Source of the DNA: a virus
Lineage: Duplodnaviria; Heunggongvirae; Uroviricota; Caudoviricetes
Virus record (IMG/VR): IMGVR_UViG_2534681663_000009
Strand: one strand, 5' to 3'
DNA length: 14,726 bases
The notes beneath the pieces are model-generated. The model saw only the letters and a program-made list of their open reading frames with translations. It searched no databases and was not told where the DNA came from. Positions 1,341 through 10,424 of the stretch are shown piece after piece. The translations under genes were made by a program, and so were the position numbers. Each line of letters starts with the position of its first letter. The stretch's first letter is position 1.

Positions 1341-4300
1341 TTAGCCACTTAACATTCCCCCATCACGTCGCATATTTAACAGATTGCCCTGCACCCGCTG
1401 ATCAACCATCCCCATAAGTGCTTTTATTGCCTGAGGGCCAATCTCTCCATTCTGGCCGTCATTTTGAATAGTGATTTGGTATACAGGGGCATAGGTAATA
1501 TCTCCGCCTCCATTACCACTTTTACTATTAATAGCTCTGACACCAAGAGAACCATCGGAAGTTCGTGTTAATGGCATAATGGCTTCCGGTCCAGCCTCAC
1601 CAAAAACACCAGCCCCTTTTGCAAAAGCAAAAAATTGCGGGGAATCATAAATACCGTTCGAATACGTGCTCAATGACGGAGACTCATAAACACCGCCCTT
1701 TGCATTCGGAATAAATTTACTAATAGCACTCCCGATAGTTCCTAAAATCCCCCCAGAAGAACTGTTACTAATGCTGTCGAAAATCCCAGTAATTGAAGCC
1801 TTTAATGCTATTCGACTAAGATCCGAAATCACGGAAGTAGCGAAAGAACGAAAATTTGCCTTGCCTGTCGTGACAAAATCACCCAGCGCATCGGTCATCC
1901 CATCAAACATCTGAGTCGTGGTTGATTTTATCTGCTCACTGATATCCTTAGTGTCATCCAGCCAGTTATTGAATCCCTGGGAGGCACCACTAACCCAGTC
2001 TCCTGCCTGAATATCGAGCTGCTCGTTTTTCTGTCTGACAATTTCTTTTTCCCGTTCCAGAGCATCATTCAGAGCCTGCATTTTCTCTTGAAAAACATGA
2101 TCTGACATTCCACGGGATTTATCTGCATAGTCACGTTCAAGTTGCAGACGCTGATTGTTATATCCATGTTCAATCCGCAGTAATTCCTGCTGGCGTTGCT
2201 GATTTTTATCGCCAACCCCATAACCAGCAATCTGAATATCATACCCCTGCTGACGATTATCAATCGAAGCCTGCAATGAATCACGCCATGCTGTTATTTC
2301 GGCGGATTCCTTGATTAGCCTGTTATTTTTTTCAATCGCAACATTTTTCTCCATCAACGTGGTTATTTCTTCCCGGTGTAAGAGAAGCGATTTCTGATCC
2401 TGGGTTAATTTCGATGATGGTCGTGACTCTAGGTCGGCAATCCGCTGACGCCACTTAACCAGTTCCTGTTCAGAGGAACTTAATTTAACGGTCAACTCAG
2501 CTTGTGAACTTAGTAACGCATTCTGTTGATTCAGATGATCAATCATTCGTTGGGCTGCATCATCAGAATAATCTTTCGCCTTTGGTTGCTTTGGATCTTT
2601 ATAACGCTCATTTATTTGAGCGATAAGATTATTATATTCTTCCTTTGAATACTGATTCTTTAGCTTTTCCAGTTTTGCAAGTTCACTAGCTCTCTGCTGC
2701 TCCCGGGTCTGATATTGTTTTGAAAAGGCATCTGCTCTCTGTCTGAGTTCAATTCCTTCCTGTTGTCGCTTGTTGTAATCGTTTATTGATGAATTTAGTA
2801 CGTCCTGAGCAATTTTTTCTGCTTGAAGTACGCCCAATTGCTGCTTTAATCGTGCCAGCCTTTTATTTTGAGCTCCGCCATCTCCAATGCCACCTAACCC
2901 GAAAACTCCGGATCGGGTATTTTTTTCTATTTCATCAATTTGACGGAGAACATCTGAGATTTTTTGATCAAGGGAGGCCTCACGGCCAATATCCAGCATG
3001 GAATCCCATGCCCATTTTGCGGAGTCTGCGACAGCTTTCCATGCAGTCTCAAGATAACCAAGATTTTCTTTAATCTGGTTGGTGCGCTGGATCATTGAGG
3101 ATGAGTATTCTTCTGTCGCAATGCGGGCGGCCTCCTGCTGGTTCCCTTCATCCTGTAGCGCCTTAATCTGGTTATAAGTCGCAAGTGTCAGAAAATGGTA
3201 CTGATCATTAAGTTTTGATATGGCACTGACAGGATCCTTTGCAATTTCATTGAAGTCATTAACCAGTTGTTCGGTTGATATTCCTGTTACTTCGCTCGTT
3301 TTTACTATCGCTGTCGTCACTTGCTCCAGCGAACTGCTCGCTACCTTTCCCGAACGCACAAGCTGATTTAATACTGCCGCCGCAGCACCAGTTGTCGAAT
3401 CAGCCGCATTCCCGGCACGTTGAGCTAAATCGCCCAATTGCCCGCTGGTTGTCCCCAACTGATTTCCGGTAAGAATAAGAGATTTATTAAATTCGTCCTG
3501 CTCCTGAGAGCCTTTATAGTAAGCCAGTCCTAAGACCCCAACGGCTGCTGCGGCCAGGGTAAAAGGATTAATTAATCCCAGCACATAAGAACCTACCCCT
3601 TTGATCGCCGGGCCAATCCCACCGAACATATCTTTTAGCTGGCCGCCCTGCTGCATTAACACCATAAATGGCGACTGACCAGTGGACAACCCAACAACAA
3701 TATCCGTCATTTGTGCAGGCAACATGCGCATAGCAAAAGCCGTTTGTTTTGCCGACATTCCGGTTTTGCTTAATTGTGATTGAGTAACCTCAAGCTCACT
3801 CCGCATAGCACGAAGTTTTCCAGAAAGCTCCTCATACATTTCAGGAGAAAGCATCCCCTTAGCTTTTGCTTCATTGAGCTGTTTCTGTTGTTCTACCAGA
3901 CGATTAAAAGCAGTTCCGACAGGATCAAGTTGAGCAATCAGACGTTGCAAAGCAACAACCTGTTCATCATGCGCTTTTGCTGCTTCTCGCTCTGCCTGAG
4001 CCTCTCCGGTAAGCTCTCGCCGTGTTTCCTGTATTTTTCGGCTATAATTCTCAAACTGAGAACCATTTATTTTCCCGGATGCAAACGCAGCATTAAGTTC
4101 ATCATGCTGTTGTTCAAGATTTCTTAGCGCCGCAGCCAGAGGGTCGATCTTGTCCAGCATTCTTTGAAAGGCCTGAGCCTGCGCTTCCTGCTGGGCGGCA
4201 GCAAGTTTTCCGGCCTTCTCGGCTTCTCTCTGCGCTTGCGCAACCCCGCTCAATTCCTCTGTGGTTTCATTAAGTTTACGGACAAGAAATTCATATTCTT

Positions 4301-4574
4301 CTTTATCAATAAGCCCTTTATCGAAAAATTTCTTTAATTCAGAATAGCGTCGACCGACAGTATCAATTGCGGCACCAACTGGATCAATAGCTGCTTTTAA
4401 TTTTGCGAGCGCGTTCTTCTCATCTTCTGTTGCCTTAGTCACTTTCCCTGCGCTATTTGCAGCAGTTTCCCCAGCCTGCGTCATTTTGACTAATGAGGAG
4501 GTCAGATTGTCAGCATTATTTTTCGCTCCAGTGCTATCAATAATTATTGCGAGACGCGAGGTTTGCTCTGCCAT
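1341..4574 (-). CDS. Tail tape measure protein (1077 aa; lambda gpH-like C-terminal region)
   Basis: Largest ORF, between the tail chaperone and M; N-terminal coiled-coil region with three tandem ~75-aa repeats, central hydrophobic segments (…FMVLMQQGG…VGVLGLAYY), C-terminal motif [13 protein letters not shown]; ATG at 4574 with AGGAG about 9 nt upstream. Confidence 0.93.
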
Positions 4575-4594
4575 TTATTAAAACTCCTGACAAC

Positions 4595-4620
4595 AAAAAA
4601 CCCACCGCGAAGTGGGTTTC
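4595..4620 (-). terminator. Rho-independent terminator-like hairpin plus U tract in the spacer between the T-frame stop and the tape measure start
   Basis: Minus-strand RNA: AAACCCAC-UUCGCG-GUGGGUUU followed by UUUUUUG; stem of 5-8 bp. Lies 15-20 nt upstream of the tape measure SD. Confidence 0.5.
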
Positions 4621-4739
4621 AGGCGACATAATAGTAGATATAGCGATTACGAGGCCACGCAATGCTTTTCTCCAGGAGCATCATCGATTTAATTAAAGAC
4701 ACCATCACATCTCTGTAACAGAGTGTACGTAATTAACAA

Positions 4740-5509
4740 CTACACACACTGCTCCTGAAAATACTGGTCATCCAGTGCAAAGATCACTGCTTCAAATTCA
4801 TCGCGCTCAATCAATACCGGATGAGTGGCTAAATATTCATTTATCTCTGTCAGAGATAAAGGCAAAGGCACCCCAGCCATTCCAGCATAACGTCGGGCAC
4901 GGGATATTACCGAATAGGCGTACAACAACTCCTTAAGCACCGGGTCTATTTCTGGTTCCGGTATCGGTGGCAACCTGAGTTTTTCTCGCTTCCATCTTGC
5001 CTTTTCCCCCCTTTCTCCCCCGAACTCCGATAACCACCGCTGGGCAGCTATGGCTTTTTTATCGTATCCTGCTTCTGCTGCTCTTTACCCTGGGCGATGC
5101 TGGCTGCTTCTGCAAGGATCTGCCAGTACAACTCTGGATTCTGCTTAAGCAGCGCGATCCCTCGTTCTGCCGTATATTCCAGTGCAACCTCAACACCATT
5201 AACCAGTTCACCAACCCCTTTCCAGTCTTTCAGCAGATAACGAGCGGCATTATCAATGAGTAAATCATCAACAGAATCCACCTCGGAAACCTTTGAAATA
5301 TCAAACTCCTTCGTTCCGACGTGCAAACTGGCATCCATTTTCTCAATGTGGCGACGGATTAATGCATTACGGGAGCGATACTGATCGTTATCGCTGCTTG
5401 CCACCAACAGTTTTAACCCGTCTACAGGTTTTAAGTCCTTCATTGGCGTAAACCAGCGTTCTCCACCAATGATAATTTTCTGATTAAGAATAAACATCCA
5501 TAACCTCAT
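4740..5509 (-). CDS. Tail assembly chaperone frameshift fusion (gpGT analogue) made by -1 programmed ribosomal frameshifting
   Basis: The -1 frame is open from 5084 down to the stop at 4740-4742 and overlaps the end of the G frame; the only slippery heptamer in the overlap is A_AAA_AAG at 5060..5054 (minus). Predicted fusion is about 255 aa. The ORF track shows the downstream part as a 77-aa ORF with an artificial TTG start. Confidence 0.65.
5048..5509 (-). CDS. Tail assembly chaperone (lambda gpG analogue), zero-frame product
   Basis: 153-aa acidic ORF immediately downstream of the major tail gene and upstream of the tape measure; ends two codons after an A_AAA_AAG heptamer. Start could be ATG 5509 or ATG 5497 (the latter has GAGG about 8 nt upstream). 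Confidence 0.75.
   Translation of the reverse strand: MRLWMFILNQKIIIGGERWFTPMKDLKPVDGLKLLVASSDNDQYRSRNALIRRHIEKMDASLHVGTKEFDISKVSEVDSVDDLLIDNAARYLLKDWKGVGELVNGVEVALEYTAERGIALLKQNPELYWQILAEAASIAQGKEQQKQDTIKKP
5054..5060 (-). other. -1 slippery heptanucleotide A_AAA_AAG (X_XXY_YYZ in the G frame)
   Basis: Plus strand 5054-5060 is ctttttt; on the minus strand the G frame reads ATA AAA AAG CCA TAG, so the heptamer is A AAA AAG two codons before the G stop. Confidence 0.6.
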
Positions 5510-5557: not shown

Positions 5558-6520
5558 TCAACTAATCGCCTCAGCACTGGCTTTTGCGATCACGGCAGCC
5601 GGGGAATTTTTTTTTCTGGTTATCGTAGGTGCTTCATCTGCTGCGGTAATGCTCAATTGAACCTGGATAATGTCGCTATTACCCCCATCAGGCCATTCAC
5701 CTGACACCTGAACCTTCGGGAAACTGAAAGTGTATGCCCCCTCTCCATTCGAAAGCGTGAAGCTGAACGGAACTGTTTCTCCAGTCAGTGTTTTACTCCA
5801 GATTTCCCACGCGGCTTTAGACCATGAAAGCGTCACCGTACCGGACGGTGTAAAAGTAGTCGGAATATTTGCTCCTGCATAAGGCGAGCCAGTCCCGATA
5901 CAACGCTGTGTCTGGAGTTTGTTATCGAACTGAATATCAAAACTGTCGATACAAAAACCGTTACCTCCGGCAACACCATTCAGGCTTACTGCTGAAACCT
6001 CCTTAAACGAATAACGTAGCTTTCCTGCACTATCCACAGGTTCGCCTTTGATAAAATTCGTATCATCGGCCTTTGATTCCCAGTCCAGTCCGGCAAAGGT
6101 TACGGTCGCTGTAATATCGCCGTCGTTAGGGATCTGCATTTTCCATGAGCCAACCTGCGCTCCTCTGACGACAGAGGCAATTCCGACATCGGACGCATAG
6201 GTCGCCAGAGAAAATGTTATTCGCTCATTCCCCATTGTCAGAGAATCGCCTGACCATTCCGCGCCGAAACAGGATGCAAGAAAATCATCATGTTGACCCC
6301 AGCGAAATTTGGTACCAACATCACCGCCGACATCCACAGTGCCAGGCGTCGCCCCCTGAGCCATCCGGGAGCCACCAATCTCATTATTTTCGCCTTTATT
6401 CTGGGTGGGTTTTACTCCCCAGCTTGTGCGTTTTAATAAACTCCAGTCACCACTTGCTGGCGTAGTGCCTGCAACCGTCTCCCGGATAAATGCCGAGATA
6501 ACCTTTGCACCTGAACTCAC
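5558..6520 (-). CDS. Major tail (tube) protein
   Basis: 320-aa ORF between the neck genes and the G/GT chaperone pair; GTG start at 6520 with AGGAGG 6 nt upstream; Thr/Ser/Gly-rich beta-type composition typical of siphovirus tube proteins. Confidence 0.78.
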   Translation of the reverse strand: MSSGAKVISAFIRETVAGTTPASGDWSLLKRTSWGVKPTQNKGENNEIGGSRMAQGATPGTVDVGGDVGTKFRWGQHDDFLASCFGAEWSGDSLTMGNERITFSLATYASDVGIASVVRGAQVGSWKMQIPNDGDITATVTFAGLDWESKADDTNFIKGEPVDSAGKLRYSFKEVSAVSLNGVAGGNGFCIDSFDIQFDNKLQTQRCIGTGSPYAGANIPTTFTPSGTVTLSWSKAAWEIWSKTLTGETVPFSFTLSNGEGAYTFSFPKVQVSGEWPDGGNSDIIQVQLSITAADEAPTITRKKNSPAAVIAKASAEAIS

Positions 6521-8098: not shown

Positions 8099-8275
8099 TT
8101 ACTCCTGAGTTTTCCAGCCCATAGCCTTCCAGTTGTCAACTTCATCAGGATGAACATTAGCGATAGTTGGTGCGCCGGGAAACATCTGATAATCGGTCAC
8201 CATAACCACTAACTCAATTTGCGTTTTTTGTGCGGCTTCACGCTGTGCTCTTTGCTCTTTAGTTAATCCGGCCAT
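8099..8275 (-). CDS. Hypothetical small head-associated protein (58 aa), not in the ORF track
   Basis: ATG 8275..8273 to TAA 8101..8099, translated by hand: MAGLTKEQRAQREAAQKTQIELVVMVTDYQMFPGAPTIANVHPDEVDNWKAMGWKTQE. Its stop is 3 nt before the connector ATG (8095), so it is translationally coupled; G-rich run (GGGGGG) 3 nt upstream of the ATG. Confidence 0.4.
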   Translation of the reverse strand: MAGLTKEQRAQREAAQKTQIELVVMVTDYQMFPGAPTIANVHPDEVDNWKAMGWKTQE

Positions 8276-8284
8276 ATGCCCCCC

Positions 8285-8307
8285 ATTAAAAATGGGGCCG
8301 AAGCCCC
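8285..8307 (-). terminator. Rho-independent terminator-like hairpin immediately downstream of the major capsid gene
   Basis: Minus-strand RNA: GGGGC-UUCG-GCCCC followed by AUUUUUAAU; begins about 10 nt after the capsid TAA stop (8318-8320). Confidence 0.5.
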
Positions 8308-8317
8308 GTTTGAATGT

Positions 8318-9457
8318 TTAACCAAGAATCAGACAACCATGTGCCGGCTTCACTGATGAAACACCCCATGCCAGTCCAACTTCATAGCGCACCTGGCGAT
8401 ACTGACGATACAGTGCAATCTGGAACGTAATCCCTGAAATCGGGTCCGTAACATTCATTACATCATCAGCATTATCGCCACCTTCCGGCATTGCCGGAGT
8501 ACGGGATGCCAGCAGAAACGCGTTGCGATCAAACGCCATATTTGCCGTAAAGGCCCCAACAACTGTGATGGCAGTATCATCGGCCAGATCCTGACGCAGT
8601 CCGGGCGCTGCAAGAGTAATCAGATTGCTGGTCGCTGCTGCCACAACATACTGATTCGGATCACCAGCGAACGTAACAATCTGACCTGCAGAAATACTCC
8701 CCGAACCAGTATCAATGGAAATAAGAACATCGCCTTCTTTTTTCTCTCCATTCACGAGATAACCAGTTGCAGCAACCTTTGGCGCTCGTTTCACACCTGC
8801 CGAACTGTGAATATTGAATCCCTCCAGACGCCCCAACACGCCCTCACGCAGTAGCTGTTCAGTGCCGGATTCATTCACTTTAAACAATACAGACTGTTTT
8901 CCGCGCAAATTAGCAATGGCAGTGGAGCCAAGCACCATCTGCAGATCGGTTGTCGGTGCGCCGTTATCCTCCAGAACCTGACGAGCCAGAGCAGCATCAG
9001 AAAGATCATCTTTAACACCAAACGGCGTTGTCCCTGCGGTTCCCACGGCGCGGGAAGCACCGAAATACAACGCACCAAGATCAGCCTCAACCTCGTTTGC
9101 AAGGGCGCGAAAAGCCTGCTTGAACTGATCAGCCAGAATGGTGTTGTAAGTCCCTGAAGGGCCAAGAGCCAGTTGTTCTTCACCATTCCATTTAACCGGT
9201 GCCATTTTGGATTTAGTAATTTTTACATCAACAGTGCCAATATTTTGATCACCGGTATTCGGAGCTGACGGCCCCGGTACGATATCTTCGGTTTTCGCCT
9301 CAGGCGCAACTGGCGCGGTTACCGTCTGATCTTTTGCTGCGGCGTCAGCTTTTACGTTTTTTGCTACCGCAGGGATAAAACCTACCTGCTCACGGGATAC
9401 AACATCCAGGGCGGTATAAATAGTCGGGATCAACCCGGTCAGGGTATTTCCAGCCAT
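8318..9457 (-). CDS. Major capsid protein
   Basis: ORF track gives 410 aa from a TTG at 9550 with no SD; the ATG at 9457..9455 has AAGGAA about 9 nt upstream and gives about 379 aa (MAGNTLTGLIPTIY...). Follows the scaffold gene and precedes the connector genes; size typical of HK97-fold capsid proteins. Confidence 0.78.
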   Translation of the reverse strand: MAGNTLTGLIPTIYTALDVVSREQVGFIPAVAKNVKADAAAKDQTVTAPVAPEAKTEDIVPGPSAPNTGDQNIGTVDVKITKSKMAPVKWNGEEQLALGPSGTYNTILADQFKQAFRALANEVEADLGALYFGASRAVGTAGTTPFGVKDDLSDAALARQVLEDNGAPTTDLQMVLGSTAIANLRGKQSVLFKVNESGTEQLLREGVLGRLEGFNIHSSAGVKRAPKVAATGYLVNGEKKEGDVLISIDTGSGSISAGQIVTFAGDPNQYVVAAATSNLITLAAPGLRQDLADDTAITVVGAFTANMAFDRNAFLLASRTPAMPEGGDNADDVMNVTDPISGITFQIALYRQYRQVRYEVGLAWGVSSVKPAHGCLILG

Positions 9458-10380: not shown

Positions 10381-10404
10381 AAAAAAGGCCACCCGAAGGT
10401 AGCC
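10381..10404 (-). terminator. Rho-independent terminator-like hairpin between the head morphogenesis and scaffold genes
   Basis: Minus-strand RNA: GGCUACC-UUCG-GGUGGCC (7-bp stem with one G-U pair, UUCG tetraloop) followed by UUUUUUAUUG; about 20 nt after the upstream gene stop (10425-10427). Confidence 0.55.
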
Positions 10405-10424
10405 TGTTGTAATAAATGATTTAT

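What the first reader, a model, noticed from the sequence alone, without database searches (positions are those of the whole stretch)
4575..4739. A 165-nt non-coding spacer with a strong terminator-like hairpin directly upstream of the tape measure gene
Genes elsewhere in the module overlap or abut, and in lambda T is followed directly by H. Here the T-frame stop (4740) and the tape measure ATG (4574) are 165 nt apart, and the spacer contains AAACCCAC-UUCGCG-GUGGGUUU plus U6 on the sense strand (4595-4620), immediately before the AGGAG SD. It could be a partial terminator or stability element lowering tape measure dosage, the 3' end of a processed transcript, or a recombination scar at a mosaic joint, since the tape measure gene is markedly more A+T-rich than its neighbours.
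Basis: seen in the sequence. Interest (0 to 1): 0.5.

Follow-up and report, generated by a model that had tools for sequence, protein, structure and literature searches.

The report
Terminator hairpin at a prophage cargo slot
The 165-base gap in front of the tape measure gene of this Rac-type prophage is the nearly empty form of a known slot for extra phage genes, closed by an ordinary-looking transcription terminator; this layout was already described for phage HK97.

Summary
The T-frame stop (4742-4740) and the tape measure ATG (4574) are 165 nt apart. A 10-pair hairpin plus U6 (4620-4595, minus strand, -12.8 kcal/mol) sits 6 nt before the AGGAG.

The window is a Rac-type lambdoid prophage, and the spacer is 100% identical to the ydaY-ynaA intergenic region of E. 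coli K-12.

In 170 related loci from at least six enterobacterial genera, the T-to-tape-measure gap ranges from 38 to 3875 nt. The longer gaps carry unrelated extra genes: Ail/Lom, a lipoprotein, zinc-ribbon membrane proteins and KilA-N. Nearly every version ends in a hairpin plus U-run 19-27 nt before the tape measure start, built from at least seven unrelated stems.

Homology with sister phages breaks 19 nt before the end of T and resumes in the 3' arm of the hairpin. The spacer is therefore the variable cassette of a mosaic joint, here reduced to 119 orphan bases plus a terminator. I found no gene, promoter or known RNA family in it.

HK97 has the same layout (gene 15 moron, annotated terminator, tape measure gene). 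A full-length relative encodes a Q-like antiterminator, so read-through during lytic growth is the likely mechanism.

Ordinary; a new member of a known kind.

The parts
5048..5509 (-). G-type tail assembly chaperone gene (homologue of K-12 ydaY). The ORF runs from the first ATG; deposited records start it at 5497.
   Evidence: ORF list; PHROG 313 'tail assembly chaperone' 4e-46; annotated YdaY in relatives
5054..5060 (-). Slippery heptamer A_AAA_AAG for the -1 frameshift into the T frame, 3 nt before the G stop codon
   Evidence: Read directly from the sequence; the frame relation was checked by translation
4740..5057 (-). T (-1 frame) extension of the chaperone, with stop TAG at 4742-4740
   Evidence: Translation; PHROG 1189 at 1.4e-36 and Pfam Phage_TAC_18 at 4.9e-4, below its cut-off
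4604..4757 (-). Lineage-specific variable cassette of the mosaic joint. It comprises the last about 6 codons of T, the 119-nt orphan segment and the 5' arm and loop of the hairpin. Sister phages with 88-96% identical flanks have a 750-800-nt Ail/Lom cassette here.
   Evidence: BLAST breakpoints at T-19 and at spacer nt 132-137; Ail_Lom Pfam hit 3.8e-27 for the sister cargo
4621..4739 (-). 119-nt orphan non-coding segment. No supported ORF, no sigma-70 consensus promoter on the sense strand, no Rfam family. It occurs only at this locus, in 1046 of 5426 complete E. coli genomes.
4597..4620 (-). Stem-loop of the intrinsic-terminator-like hairpin: GAAACCCACU-UCGC-GGUGGGUUUU, or 8 pairs with loop UUCGCG
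   Evidence: Terminator scan with 10 pairs; -12.8 kcal/mol, z -2.5; kept in the 186-nt context fold
4595..4600 (-). U6 tract (U6-U8 in sister alleles). It belongs to the conserved block on the tape measure side, together with the SD leader.
   Evidence: Sequence; alleles; homology resumes at the 3' arm and U-run
4584..4588 (-). AGGAG Shine-Dalgarno of the tape measure gene, 9 nt before the ATG and 6 nt after the U-run
   Evidence: Sequence
1341..4574 (-). Tail tape measure gene (1077 aa). K-12 ynaA is a truncated copy.
   Evidence: Pfam TMP_2 1.6e-81, Tape_meas_lam_C, TMP_4; K-12 annotation
8294..8307 (-). Second punctuation hairpin of the same late operon: GGGGC-UUCG-GCCCC plus AUUUUU, after the coat gene and just before the next SD
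   Evidence: conserved in 104 related loci
10386..10405 (-). Third sense-strand terminator-like hairpin of the late operon: AGGCUACC-UUCG-GGUGGCCU plus U6, between the minor head gene and the scaffold gene
   Evidence: -13.8 kcal/mol, z -5.6

Best explanation
The spacer is the nearly empty state of a cargo ('moron') slot between the chaperone frameshift gene T and the tape measure gene of a Rac-type lambdoid prophage. The hairpin plus U6 is a canonical Rho-independent terminator that closes the slot on its 3' side.

Shown:
- The anatomy of the hairpin.
- The slot varies from 38 to 3875 nt and holds unrelated cargo genes in relatives.
- Nearly every version ends in a hairpin plus U-run 19-27 nt before the tape measure start. 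The stems are unrelated, while the U-run and SD leader are shared.
- In the window the cassette boundaries lie 19 nt before the end of T and in the 3' arm of the hairpin.

Inferred:
- In a lysogen, unmodified RNA polymerase coming from cargo promoters or stray upstream transcription stops here, which keeps the tape measure and distal tail genes silent.
- During lytic growth, polymerase modified by the phage's Q-like antiterminator reads through this terminator and the two other terminator-like hairpins of the late operon. Read-through must happen, because the full-length tape measure gene starts 21 nt after the U-run and no room is left for a promoter.
- The 119 nt upstream of the hairpin are most likely non-functional remains or filler of a former cassette.
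For: Anatomy.

Identity of the flanking genes.

Variable slot: there are more than 40 gap-length classes among 162 IMG/VR, phage and E. coli loci, and 163-3875 nt in eight further species-level genomes. Cargo includes Ail/Lom, DUF2545 plus zinc-ribbon membrane proteins, KilA-N and a PHROG 7441 lipoprotein.

Terminator conserved in position: 51 of 55 distinct upstream sequences (48 of 55 under strict criteria), against 3.6% (0.4% strict) of shuffles and 5.4% (1.8% strict) of random natural windows. There are at least 7 unrelated stems, and loops vary within stem families.

Breakpoints.

Same layout in the deposited HK97 annotation: gp14 ends at 8145, moron gene 15 is 8203-8391, a 'terminator, putative' is at 8398-8422, and the tape measure gene starts at 8435. 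The published moron definition, and the statement that gene 15 lies between the chaperone and the tape measure gene, are in PMC3594210.

Q-like antiterminator (PHROG 753, 2e-79), followed by a tR'-like terminator, in a full-length prophage whose spacer is 100% identical.

The spacer is 100% identical in a deposited phage isolate, SPF_0923, so it is compatible with making virions.
Against: No transcript evidence. MG1655 Term-seq tables list no 3' end at 14264xx, ydaY or tmpR, and other 3'-end data sets either listed nothing for these terms or hold no searchable supplementary files.

No sigma-70 consensus promoter was found in the spacer or convincingly in front of the cargo genes. 'Insulation from cargo promoters' is therefore inference.

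Some E. coli alleles weaken the stem (G139T, T140C) without compensation.

HK022 has an empty slot with no hairpin at all. A terminator at this junction is therefore not a general requirement.

In the 39-nt cargo-less class the most stable fold is an SD-sequestering hairpin, not the terminator.

Within the window alone the hairpin is not statistically exceptional.
Confidence: 0.55

Rival explanations
1. Programmed attenuator. The hairpin terminates a fixed fraction of late transcripts even in lytic growth. The tape measure and tail-tip genes, needed in few copies, then receive less mRNA than the coat, tube and chaperone genes. This would resemble T7 T-phi after the major capsid gene (recalled from the literature, not checked here).
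For: Canonical terminator anatomy just upstream of a low-copy gene. Two cargo-less gap classes (39 nt and 163-165 nt) still have a hairpin plus U-run. A similar conserved hairpin follows the high-copy coat gene.
Against: A Q-like antiterminator is present in the full-length relative. By the lambdoid paradigm, modified polymerase ignores intrinsic terminators. The third hairpin (10405-10386) precedes the scaffold and coat genes, which need more rather than less expression. HK022 and lambda do without any gap here.
Confidence: 0.15
2. RNA stability or processing element. Polymerase reads through, but the hairpin in the mRNA blocks 3'-to-5' exonucleases after downstream cleavage. This would stabilise the coat-to-chaperone segment relative to the distal tail segment. 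Known parallels are intercistronic stem-loops and REP elements in polycistronic operons.
For: Three strong sense-strand hairpins sit in intergenic gaps of the late operon. The post-coat hairpin is conserved across genera. This reading is compatible with Q-mediated read-through.
Against: A pure exonuclease barrier does not need a U-tract, yet every class keeps at least 5 U in 8 directly after the stem. There are no data on processing.
Confidence: 0.12
3. Inert scar. The terminator and the 119 nt are simply what was left when a cargo gene was deleted or replaced. Neither has any present function.
For: The 119 nt have no gene, promoter, RNA family or relative elsewhere. The stem family CCCAC/GUGGG also closes a zinc-ribbon cargo gene in L156. 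Uncompensated stem-weakening alleles exist. Many carriers are cryptic prophages such as K-12 Rac. HK022 needs no hairpin.
Against: Stems are kept while loops vary within several stem families. Both cargo-less classes retain a hairpin plus U-run in many genomes.
Confidence: 0.13
4. Independent small gene. The spacer encodes a prophage small RNA or a micro-protein (29-aa ORF 4708..4619, whose stop TGA abuts the hairpin), for which the hairpin is the terminator.
For: The ORF ends exactly at the hairpin base. The spacer body has the lowest diversity in the region (pi 0.0045). The whole spacer folds somewhat better than shuffles (z -2.4).
Against: No sense-strand promoter, no Rfam hit at E<=1 and no PHROG hit. 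The five variable sites include a nonsense change (TGG to TGA), ATG to ATA and a Pro-to-Leu change. The low diversity is shared by a roughly 700-nt recombination block reaching into T and the tape measure gene. MG1655 annotation and Term-seq list nothing here.
Confidence: 0.05

Closest known systems
HK97 gene 15 moron with its terminator, between gp14 (T) and gp16 (tape measure). Described by Juhala et al. 2000 as cited in PMC3594210; GenBank AF069529.
   Same: Same slot: directly after the chaperone frameshift gene and directly before the tape measure gene. Same 3' end: a GC hairpin plus U-run (CCCGCU-AUCA-AGCGGG plus U8) 12 nt before the tape measure start, annotated 'terminator, putative'. 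Same concept: extra DNA relative to sister phages.
   Different: HK97 carries a 62-aa superinfection-exclusion gene. The window carries no supported gene and no promoter, only 119 orphan bases plus the terminator. The stems are unrelated in sequence, and the phage lineages differ (P22-like coat and Rac-type early region here).
HK022 and lambda T-to-tape-measure junctions (empty slot)
   Same: Same gene order, with G, T by -1 frameshift, then the tape measure gene.
   Different: HK022 has 19 nt and no hairpin. In lambda the genes overlap by 8 nt. In the Rac-type family even the shortest gap (38-39 nt) holds a hairpin plus U-run.
Terminators inside lambdoid late operons that are read through by Q-modified RNA polymerase (lambda tR' paradigm; HK97 record annotates terminators on both sides of the major tail gene)
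   Same: Sense-strand intrinsic-terminator anatomy inside a long late operon whose distal genes are essential. A Q-like gene followed by a tR'-like terminator is present in the full-length relative.
   Different: Read-through by Q was not tested for this phage. The Q-like protein is identified by family membership only.
T7 T-phi, a partial terminator after the major capsid gene (recalled from the literature, not checked here)
   Same: A terminator inside a structural gene cluster that lets a fraction of polymerases continue into low-copy genes.
   Different: T7 uses its own polymerase and has no antiterminator. Nothing here shows partial termination.
Lambda lom and bor morons; Ail/Lom cargo
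   Same: Sister phages of the window carry an Ail/Lom-family gene in this very slot (Pfam 3.8e-27), closed by GGCCCCGCUU/AAGCGGGGCU plus a U-run.
   Different: In lambda, lom lies after J, not before the tape measure gene. The window itself lacks the gene.

Membership tests
Rho-independent (intrinsic) terminator | G+C-rich stem-loop of about 5-14 pairs with a short loop | tested here: met
   8-10 pairs, 4 G-C pairs, loop of 4-6, -12.8 kcal/mol
Rho-independent (intrinsic) terminator | U-tract directly 3' of the stem on the transcribed strand | tested here: met
   U6 at 4600-4595 followed by GUUGU. Sister alleles have U6-U8, or C followed by U5 in the T140C allele. The opposite strand has only UUUC, so the element is unidirectional.
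Rho-independent (intrinsic) terminator | Lies downstream of a transcription unit, in sense orientation, in non-coding DNA | tested here: met
   Located between the T stop and the tape measure SD, on the strand of all genes
Rho-independent (intrinsic) terminator | Actually releases RNA polymerase (3' ends in vivo or in vitro) | not testable with these tools
   MG1655 Term-seq tables list no 3' end here, but the cryptic Rac late region is probably not transcribed, so this is uninformative.
Moron (Juhala/Hendrix sense; definition in PMC3594210) | Extra DNA between two genes that are adjacent in related phages | tested here: met
   165 nt here, against 38-39 nt in L075-L080 and L085, 19 nt in HK022 and an overlap in lambda
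Moron (Juhala/Hendrix sense; definition in PMC3594210) | Carries a gene expressed from the prophage | tested here: not met
   No ORF of 50 aa or more. The 29-aa ORF has nonsense and start-codon variants and no family hit.
Moron (Juhala/Hendrix sense; definition in PMC3594210) | Own promoter | tested here: not met
   No sigma-70 consensus match on the sense strand in or just upstream of the spacer. Other promoter types are not covered by the scan.
Moron (Juhala/Hendrix sense; definition in PMC3594210) | Own terminator | tested here: met
Moron (Juhala/Hendrix sense; definition in PMC3594210) | Base composition different from the flanks | tested here: inconclusive
   GC is 0.43-0.46 across 4200-5000, with no step at the spacer. 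The element is too short for the profile.
Known RNA family (Rfam 15) | Covariance-model match | tested here: not met
   No match at E<=1 anywhere in the window
Translational operator sequestering the tape measure SD | SD pairing stronger than chance and conserved across relatives | tested here: not met
   In the window the SD unpaired probability is 0.01, but 10% of shuffles are as low and the sister allele gives 0.45. Across 26 classes the values run 0.01-0.96 with no trend.

The most novel reading that the evidence does not exclude
In the Rac-type family, a hairpin in front of the tape measure SD is kept whether or not the slot holds cargo, and it may be a regulatory device in its own right. 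In cargo-less forms it could set tape measure and distal tail dosage. One route is attenuating late transcription. The other, seen in the 39-nt class, is switching between a terminator hairpin and a much more stable SD-sequestering hairpin (-19.5 kcal/mol), because GCCCGG occurs both in the 5' arm and in the SD leader. With the conserved post-coat hairpin, this would make the late operon a 'punctuated' transcript whose stoichiometry is partly set by RNA structure.
Probability: 0.12. Interest if true: 0.45.

Novelty: new member of a known kind. Interest (0 to 1): 0.22.

Why it matters
On its own the finding matters little. It is an ordinary terminator at a junction where phages are already known to carry extra genes.

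The comparative result is modestly useful in three ways:
- It documents the T-to-tape-measure junction of Rac-type prophages, present in about a fifth of complete E. coli genomes including K-12, as a busy cargo site. Gaps run from 38 to 3875 nt and hold an outer-membrane protein, a lipoprotein and membrane zinc-ribbon proteins. It is therefore a place to look for prophage-encoded host-fitness or exclusion genes.
- It shows that cassette exchange leaves the U-tract and ribosome-binding leader with the tape measure gene and swaps everything up to the hairpin stem.
- It gives an annotation for an unannotated K-12 intergenic region: MG1655 1426289-1426453, with the hairpin at 1426408-1426433.

Tried and rejected
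1. Rfam search of the whole window at E<=1: nothing.

2. Small ORFs in the spacer. The 29-aa ORF ends at the hairpin but has no PHROG hit. Among only five variable sites it shows a nonsense change, an ATG-to-ATA change and a Pro-to-Leu change. Rejected as coding.

3. A resemblance I saw by eye between the start of the spacer and the start of the Klebsiella gap (AAATCGATGATG). A local alignment gives z <= 1.3 against shuffles, and blastn-short and tblastx found nothing. Rejected.

4. Low diversity of the spacer body as evidence of constraint (pi 0.0045 against 0.013-0.044). Per-100-nt difference counts show a roughly 700-nt low-divergence block from the last 100 nt of T to about 430 nt into the tape measure gene. 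This is a shared recombination block, not specific constraint.

5. Anti-SD pairing (CUCCUG at 4678-4673 with CAGGAG). Not beyond chance and not conserved.

6. Copies of the spacer elsewhere. None in plasmids. It occurs only at this locus in E. coli genomes and only in the same family among phages.

7. 3'-end maps. The Adams et al. MG1655 tables list nothing at these coordinates or gene names. The TERMITe tables list nothing. Two other papers have no supplementary files held. A full-text search for ydaY, tmpR and ynaA gave nothing relevant.

8. Promoters of the cargo genes. The consensus scan was inconclusive.

9. The odd 56-nt match inside a 'J' gene (H50) is just another Rac deletion derivative.

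10. GC content as evidence for a joint at the spacer: no step there.

Full report
**What is there**

All genes of the window lie on the minus strand. The tape measure ORF is 1341..4574 with ATG at 4574 (Pfam TMP_2 1.6e-81, Tape_meas_lam_C, TMP_4). Upstream lie the tail tube gene 5558..6520 (Phage_tube_2) and a G-type chaperone gene 5048..5509 (PHROG 313). A slippery A_AAA_AAG sits at 5060-5054, and the -1 frame stays open to TAG 4742-4740. That frame matches PHROG 1189 at 1.4e-36.

The non-coding gap 4575-4739 is therefore 165 nt, as reported, and it is the longest gap in the module. Its 3' end reads GAAACCCACU-UCGC-GGUGGGUUUU (4620-4597), with U6 at 4600-4595, then GUUGUC, AGGAG (4588-4584), 9 nt and ATG. 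The terminator scan lists it with 10 pairs. It folds at -12.8 kcal/mol (z -2.5) and survives in the fold of the 186-nt context.

Taken alone it is not beyond chance. I count 3 hairpins of this quality in the window, against 1.35 expected in simulated sequence.

**Where the window comes from**

The region is 100% identical to Salmonella phage SPF_0923 and 98% identical to a series of E. coli phage records. The spacer with its flanks is 100% identical to the ydaY-ynaA interval of the cryptic Rac prophage of E. coli K-12. It is present in 1069 of 5426 complete E. coli genomes.

In MG1655 the spacer is 1426289-1426453 and the hairpin 1426408-1426433. Nothing is annotated there. A full-length relative in strain SCU-104, with an identical spacer, has a lambdoid layout: racR, replication genes, NinB-like gene, Q-like antiterminator (PHROG 753, 2e-79), lysis genes, trkG, terminase, portal, P22-like coat, tail. 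A tR'-like terminator follows the Q-like gene after about 85 nt.

**The gap is a cargo slot**

I collected 160 loci from IMG/VR using the chaperone of the window and that of a Klebsiella relative. I added deposited phages, E. coli genomes and ten species-level genomes: Shigella, E. ruysiae, four Citrobacter, Raoultella, Siccibacter and two further E. coli genomes.

The distance from the T stop to the tape measure start takes more than 40 values between 38 and 3875 nt. The longer gaps hold unrelated genes:
- an Ail/Lom outer-membrane protein (Pfam 3.8e-27);
- DUF2545 plus zinc-ribbon membrane proteins;
- a lipoprotein (PHROG 7441);
- a KilA-N protein;
- several proteins with no family.

In the Klebsiella phages each of the two cargo genes has its own hairpin plus U-run.

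This is the moron situation. The first moron ever named, HK97 gene 15, lies in exactly this slot, between the chaperone and the tape measure gene (PMC3594210). The deposited HK97 record annotates a 'terminator, putative' at 8398-8422, 12 nt before the tape measure start.

**The hairpin is conserved in position, not in sequence**

Of 55 distinct 70-nt sequences upstream of the tape measure start, 51 have a hairpin plus U-run ending 19-27 nt before the start codon (48 under stricter criteria). The comparison values are 3.6% (0.4% strict) of shuffles and 5.4% (1.8% strict) of random natural 70-nt windows. The four failures are single-mismatch or weak versions.

At least seven unrelated stems occur:
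- GCCCGG/UCCGGG
- CCCAC/GUGGG
- CCUCGC/GCGGGG
- CCCGC/GCGGG
- GGCCCCGCUU/AAGCGGGGCU
- GCCGC/GCGGC
- GGCCGCG/GCGCGGC

Within stem families the loops vary while the stems stay. The U-run and the leader up to the SD are shared backbone.

**Mosaic joint**

Sister phages have flanks 88-96% identical to the window but carry Ail/Lom in the slot. They lose homology 19 nt before the end of the T stop codon and regain it at spacer nt 132-137, which is the 3' arm of the hairpin. The same pattern holds between the 39-nt class and its cargo-bearing sisters.

The window's variable cassette is therefore about 4604-4757: the last six codons of T, 119 orphan nt, and the 5' arm and loop of the hairpin. The A+T argument is not, because GC shows no step at the spacer and the sharp change is near 1000-1200.

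**The 119 orphan bases**

I found nothing that speaks for a function:
- No Rfam match.
- No sense-strand sigma-70 consensus promoter.
- No similarity to any other gap class at the DNA or translated level, except that the stem family and about 15 nt before it resemble the terminator of a zinc-ribbon cargo gene in L156.
- No copy in plasmids or elsewhere in E. coli genomes.
- A 29-aa ORF ends at the hairpin base, but it has no family hit, and its five variable sites include a nonsense change and a start-codon change.

The low diversity of the segment is shared by a roughly 700-nt block and reflects recombination history. Inside that block the hairpin and leader are the most polymorphic part: a CG loop indel, U6 to U8, and the stem-weakening G139T and T140C changes.

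**How it most likely works**

The anatomy is that of a Rho-independent terminator, including the U-tract that a mere exonuclease barrier would not need. The tape measure gene starts 21 nt after the U-run, so every full-length tape measure message must come from a polymerase that passed the hairpin. The same spacer is found in a deposited phage isolate, so passing must be possible.

The relative carries a Q-like antiterminator and a tR'-like terminator. The simplest model follows the lambdoid paradigm, and this step is inferred rather than shown:
- Q-modified polymerase ignores this hairpin and the two other sense-strand hairpins of the late operon (10405-10386 and 8307-8294).
- Unmodified polymerase in a lysogen stops there, which insulates the distal tail genes from cargo or stray transcription.

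Rivals are a programmed partial terminator, an mRNA stability element, an inert scar and a small independent gene. Their weights are given in the rival section.

Against a dosage role:
- The Q-like gene.
- The hairpin at 10405-10386 precedes high-copy genes.
- HK022 and lambda have no hairpin at this junction.

Against a pure scar:
- Stems are retained while loops vary.
- A hairpin plus U-run is present in both cargo-less classes.

No transcript data decide between these. The curated MG1655 Term-seq tables contain no 3' end at these coordinates, but the cryptic Rac late region is probably silent.

**Loose ends**

In the 39-nt class the whole gap folds best as an SD-sequestering hairpin (-19.5 kcal/mol), because GCCCGG occurs both in the 5' arm and in the SD leader. 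The 'terminator' of that class is therefore ambiguous.

In the window the SD can pair with CUCCUG at 4678-4673. This is neither beyond chance nor conserved.

The post-coat hairpin GGGGCUUCGGCCCC plus U-run is conserved in sequence from E. coli to Klebsiella, Citrobacter and Raoultella, while its flanks diverge. This suggests that hairpin punctuation is a standing feature of this late operon.

**Verdict**

The element is an ordinary intrinsic-terminator-like hairpin closing a nearly empty cargo slot at a mosaic joint. The layout has been known since HK97, so this is a new member of a known kind, of low interest. The comparative picture of the slot is a modest by-product.

Noticed in passing
window 8294-8307 (-): Hairpin GGGGC-UUCG-GCCCC plus AUUUUU directly after the coat gene and before the next gene's SD. 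It is conserved in sequence in 104 related loci from E. coli, Citrobacter, Klebsiella and Raoultella, although the flanking bases diverge.
   Followed up: partly
window 10386-10405 (-): Strong sense-strand terminator-like hairpin AGGCUACC-UUCG-GGUGGCCU plus U6 (-13.8 kcal/mol, z -5.6). It lies between the minor head protein gene and the scaffold gene, that is, in front of high-copy genes.
   Followed up: no
L075 4789-4827 (also L076, L077, L079, L080, L085): The shortest (38-39 nt) T-to-tape-measure gap contains GCCCGG twice: once in the 5' arm of the hairpin and once in the SD leader. The 3' arm UCCGGG can therefore form either a terminator hairpin (-9 kcal/mol) or a much more stable SD-sequestering hairpin (-19.5 kcal/mol, z -3.5).
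   Followed up: partly
window 4673-4678 and 4584-4589 (-): CUCCUG in the spacer is perfectly complementary to the tape measure SD CAGGAG, and the predicted SD unpaired probability is 0.01. However, 10% of shuffles are as low, a sister allele (A to T in the SD leader) gives 0.45, and 26 gap classes show no trend.
   Followed up: yes
L061-L065, L050, L059 (gap 746-796 nt): E. coli sister prophages carry an Ail/Lom-family outer-membrane protein gene (178-185 aa, Pfam 3.8e-27) between T and the tape measure gene. In lambda, lom lies after J.
   Followed up: partly
L005 1620-2455; L081, L078, L156 gaps: Recurrent cargo of the slot in Klebsiella- and Citrobacter-type relatives. One is a small membrane protein with DUF2545 and a C-terminal zinc ribbon. 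Another is a PHROG 7441 lipoprotein. Their functions are unknown. By position they are candidates for exclusion proteins like HK97 gp15.
   Followed up: no
L169 10462-11112: The full-length Rac-type prophage of E. coli SCU-104 has a Q-like antiterminator gene (PHROG 753, 2e-79). About 85 nt downstream lies AAAAAAACCGCUUAAUGCGGUUUUUUUU, which looks like a tR'-type terminator.
   Followed up: partly
window 4758-4740 (-), last 6 codons of T: The C-terminal few residues of the T domain belong to the exchangeable cassette. Homology with sister phages stops 19 nt before the end of the stop codon, so the chaperone tail differs between cassette types.
   Followed up: no
L183 2501-2556 (E. coli Z142-3): A 56-nt piece of the T region (window 4823-4768) is fused to a J gene fragment. 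This is another deletion derivative of Rac, different from the K-12 one.
   Followed up: yes
window 5497-5509 (-): The chaperone ORF can start at ATG 5509 (153 aa), but deposited records start it 12 nt later (150 aa). K-12 ydaY is a shorter, N-terminally truncated version (360 nt).
   Followed up: no
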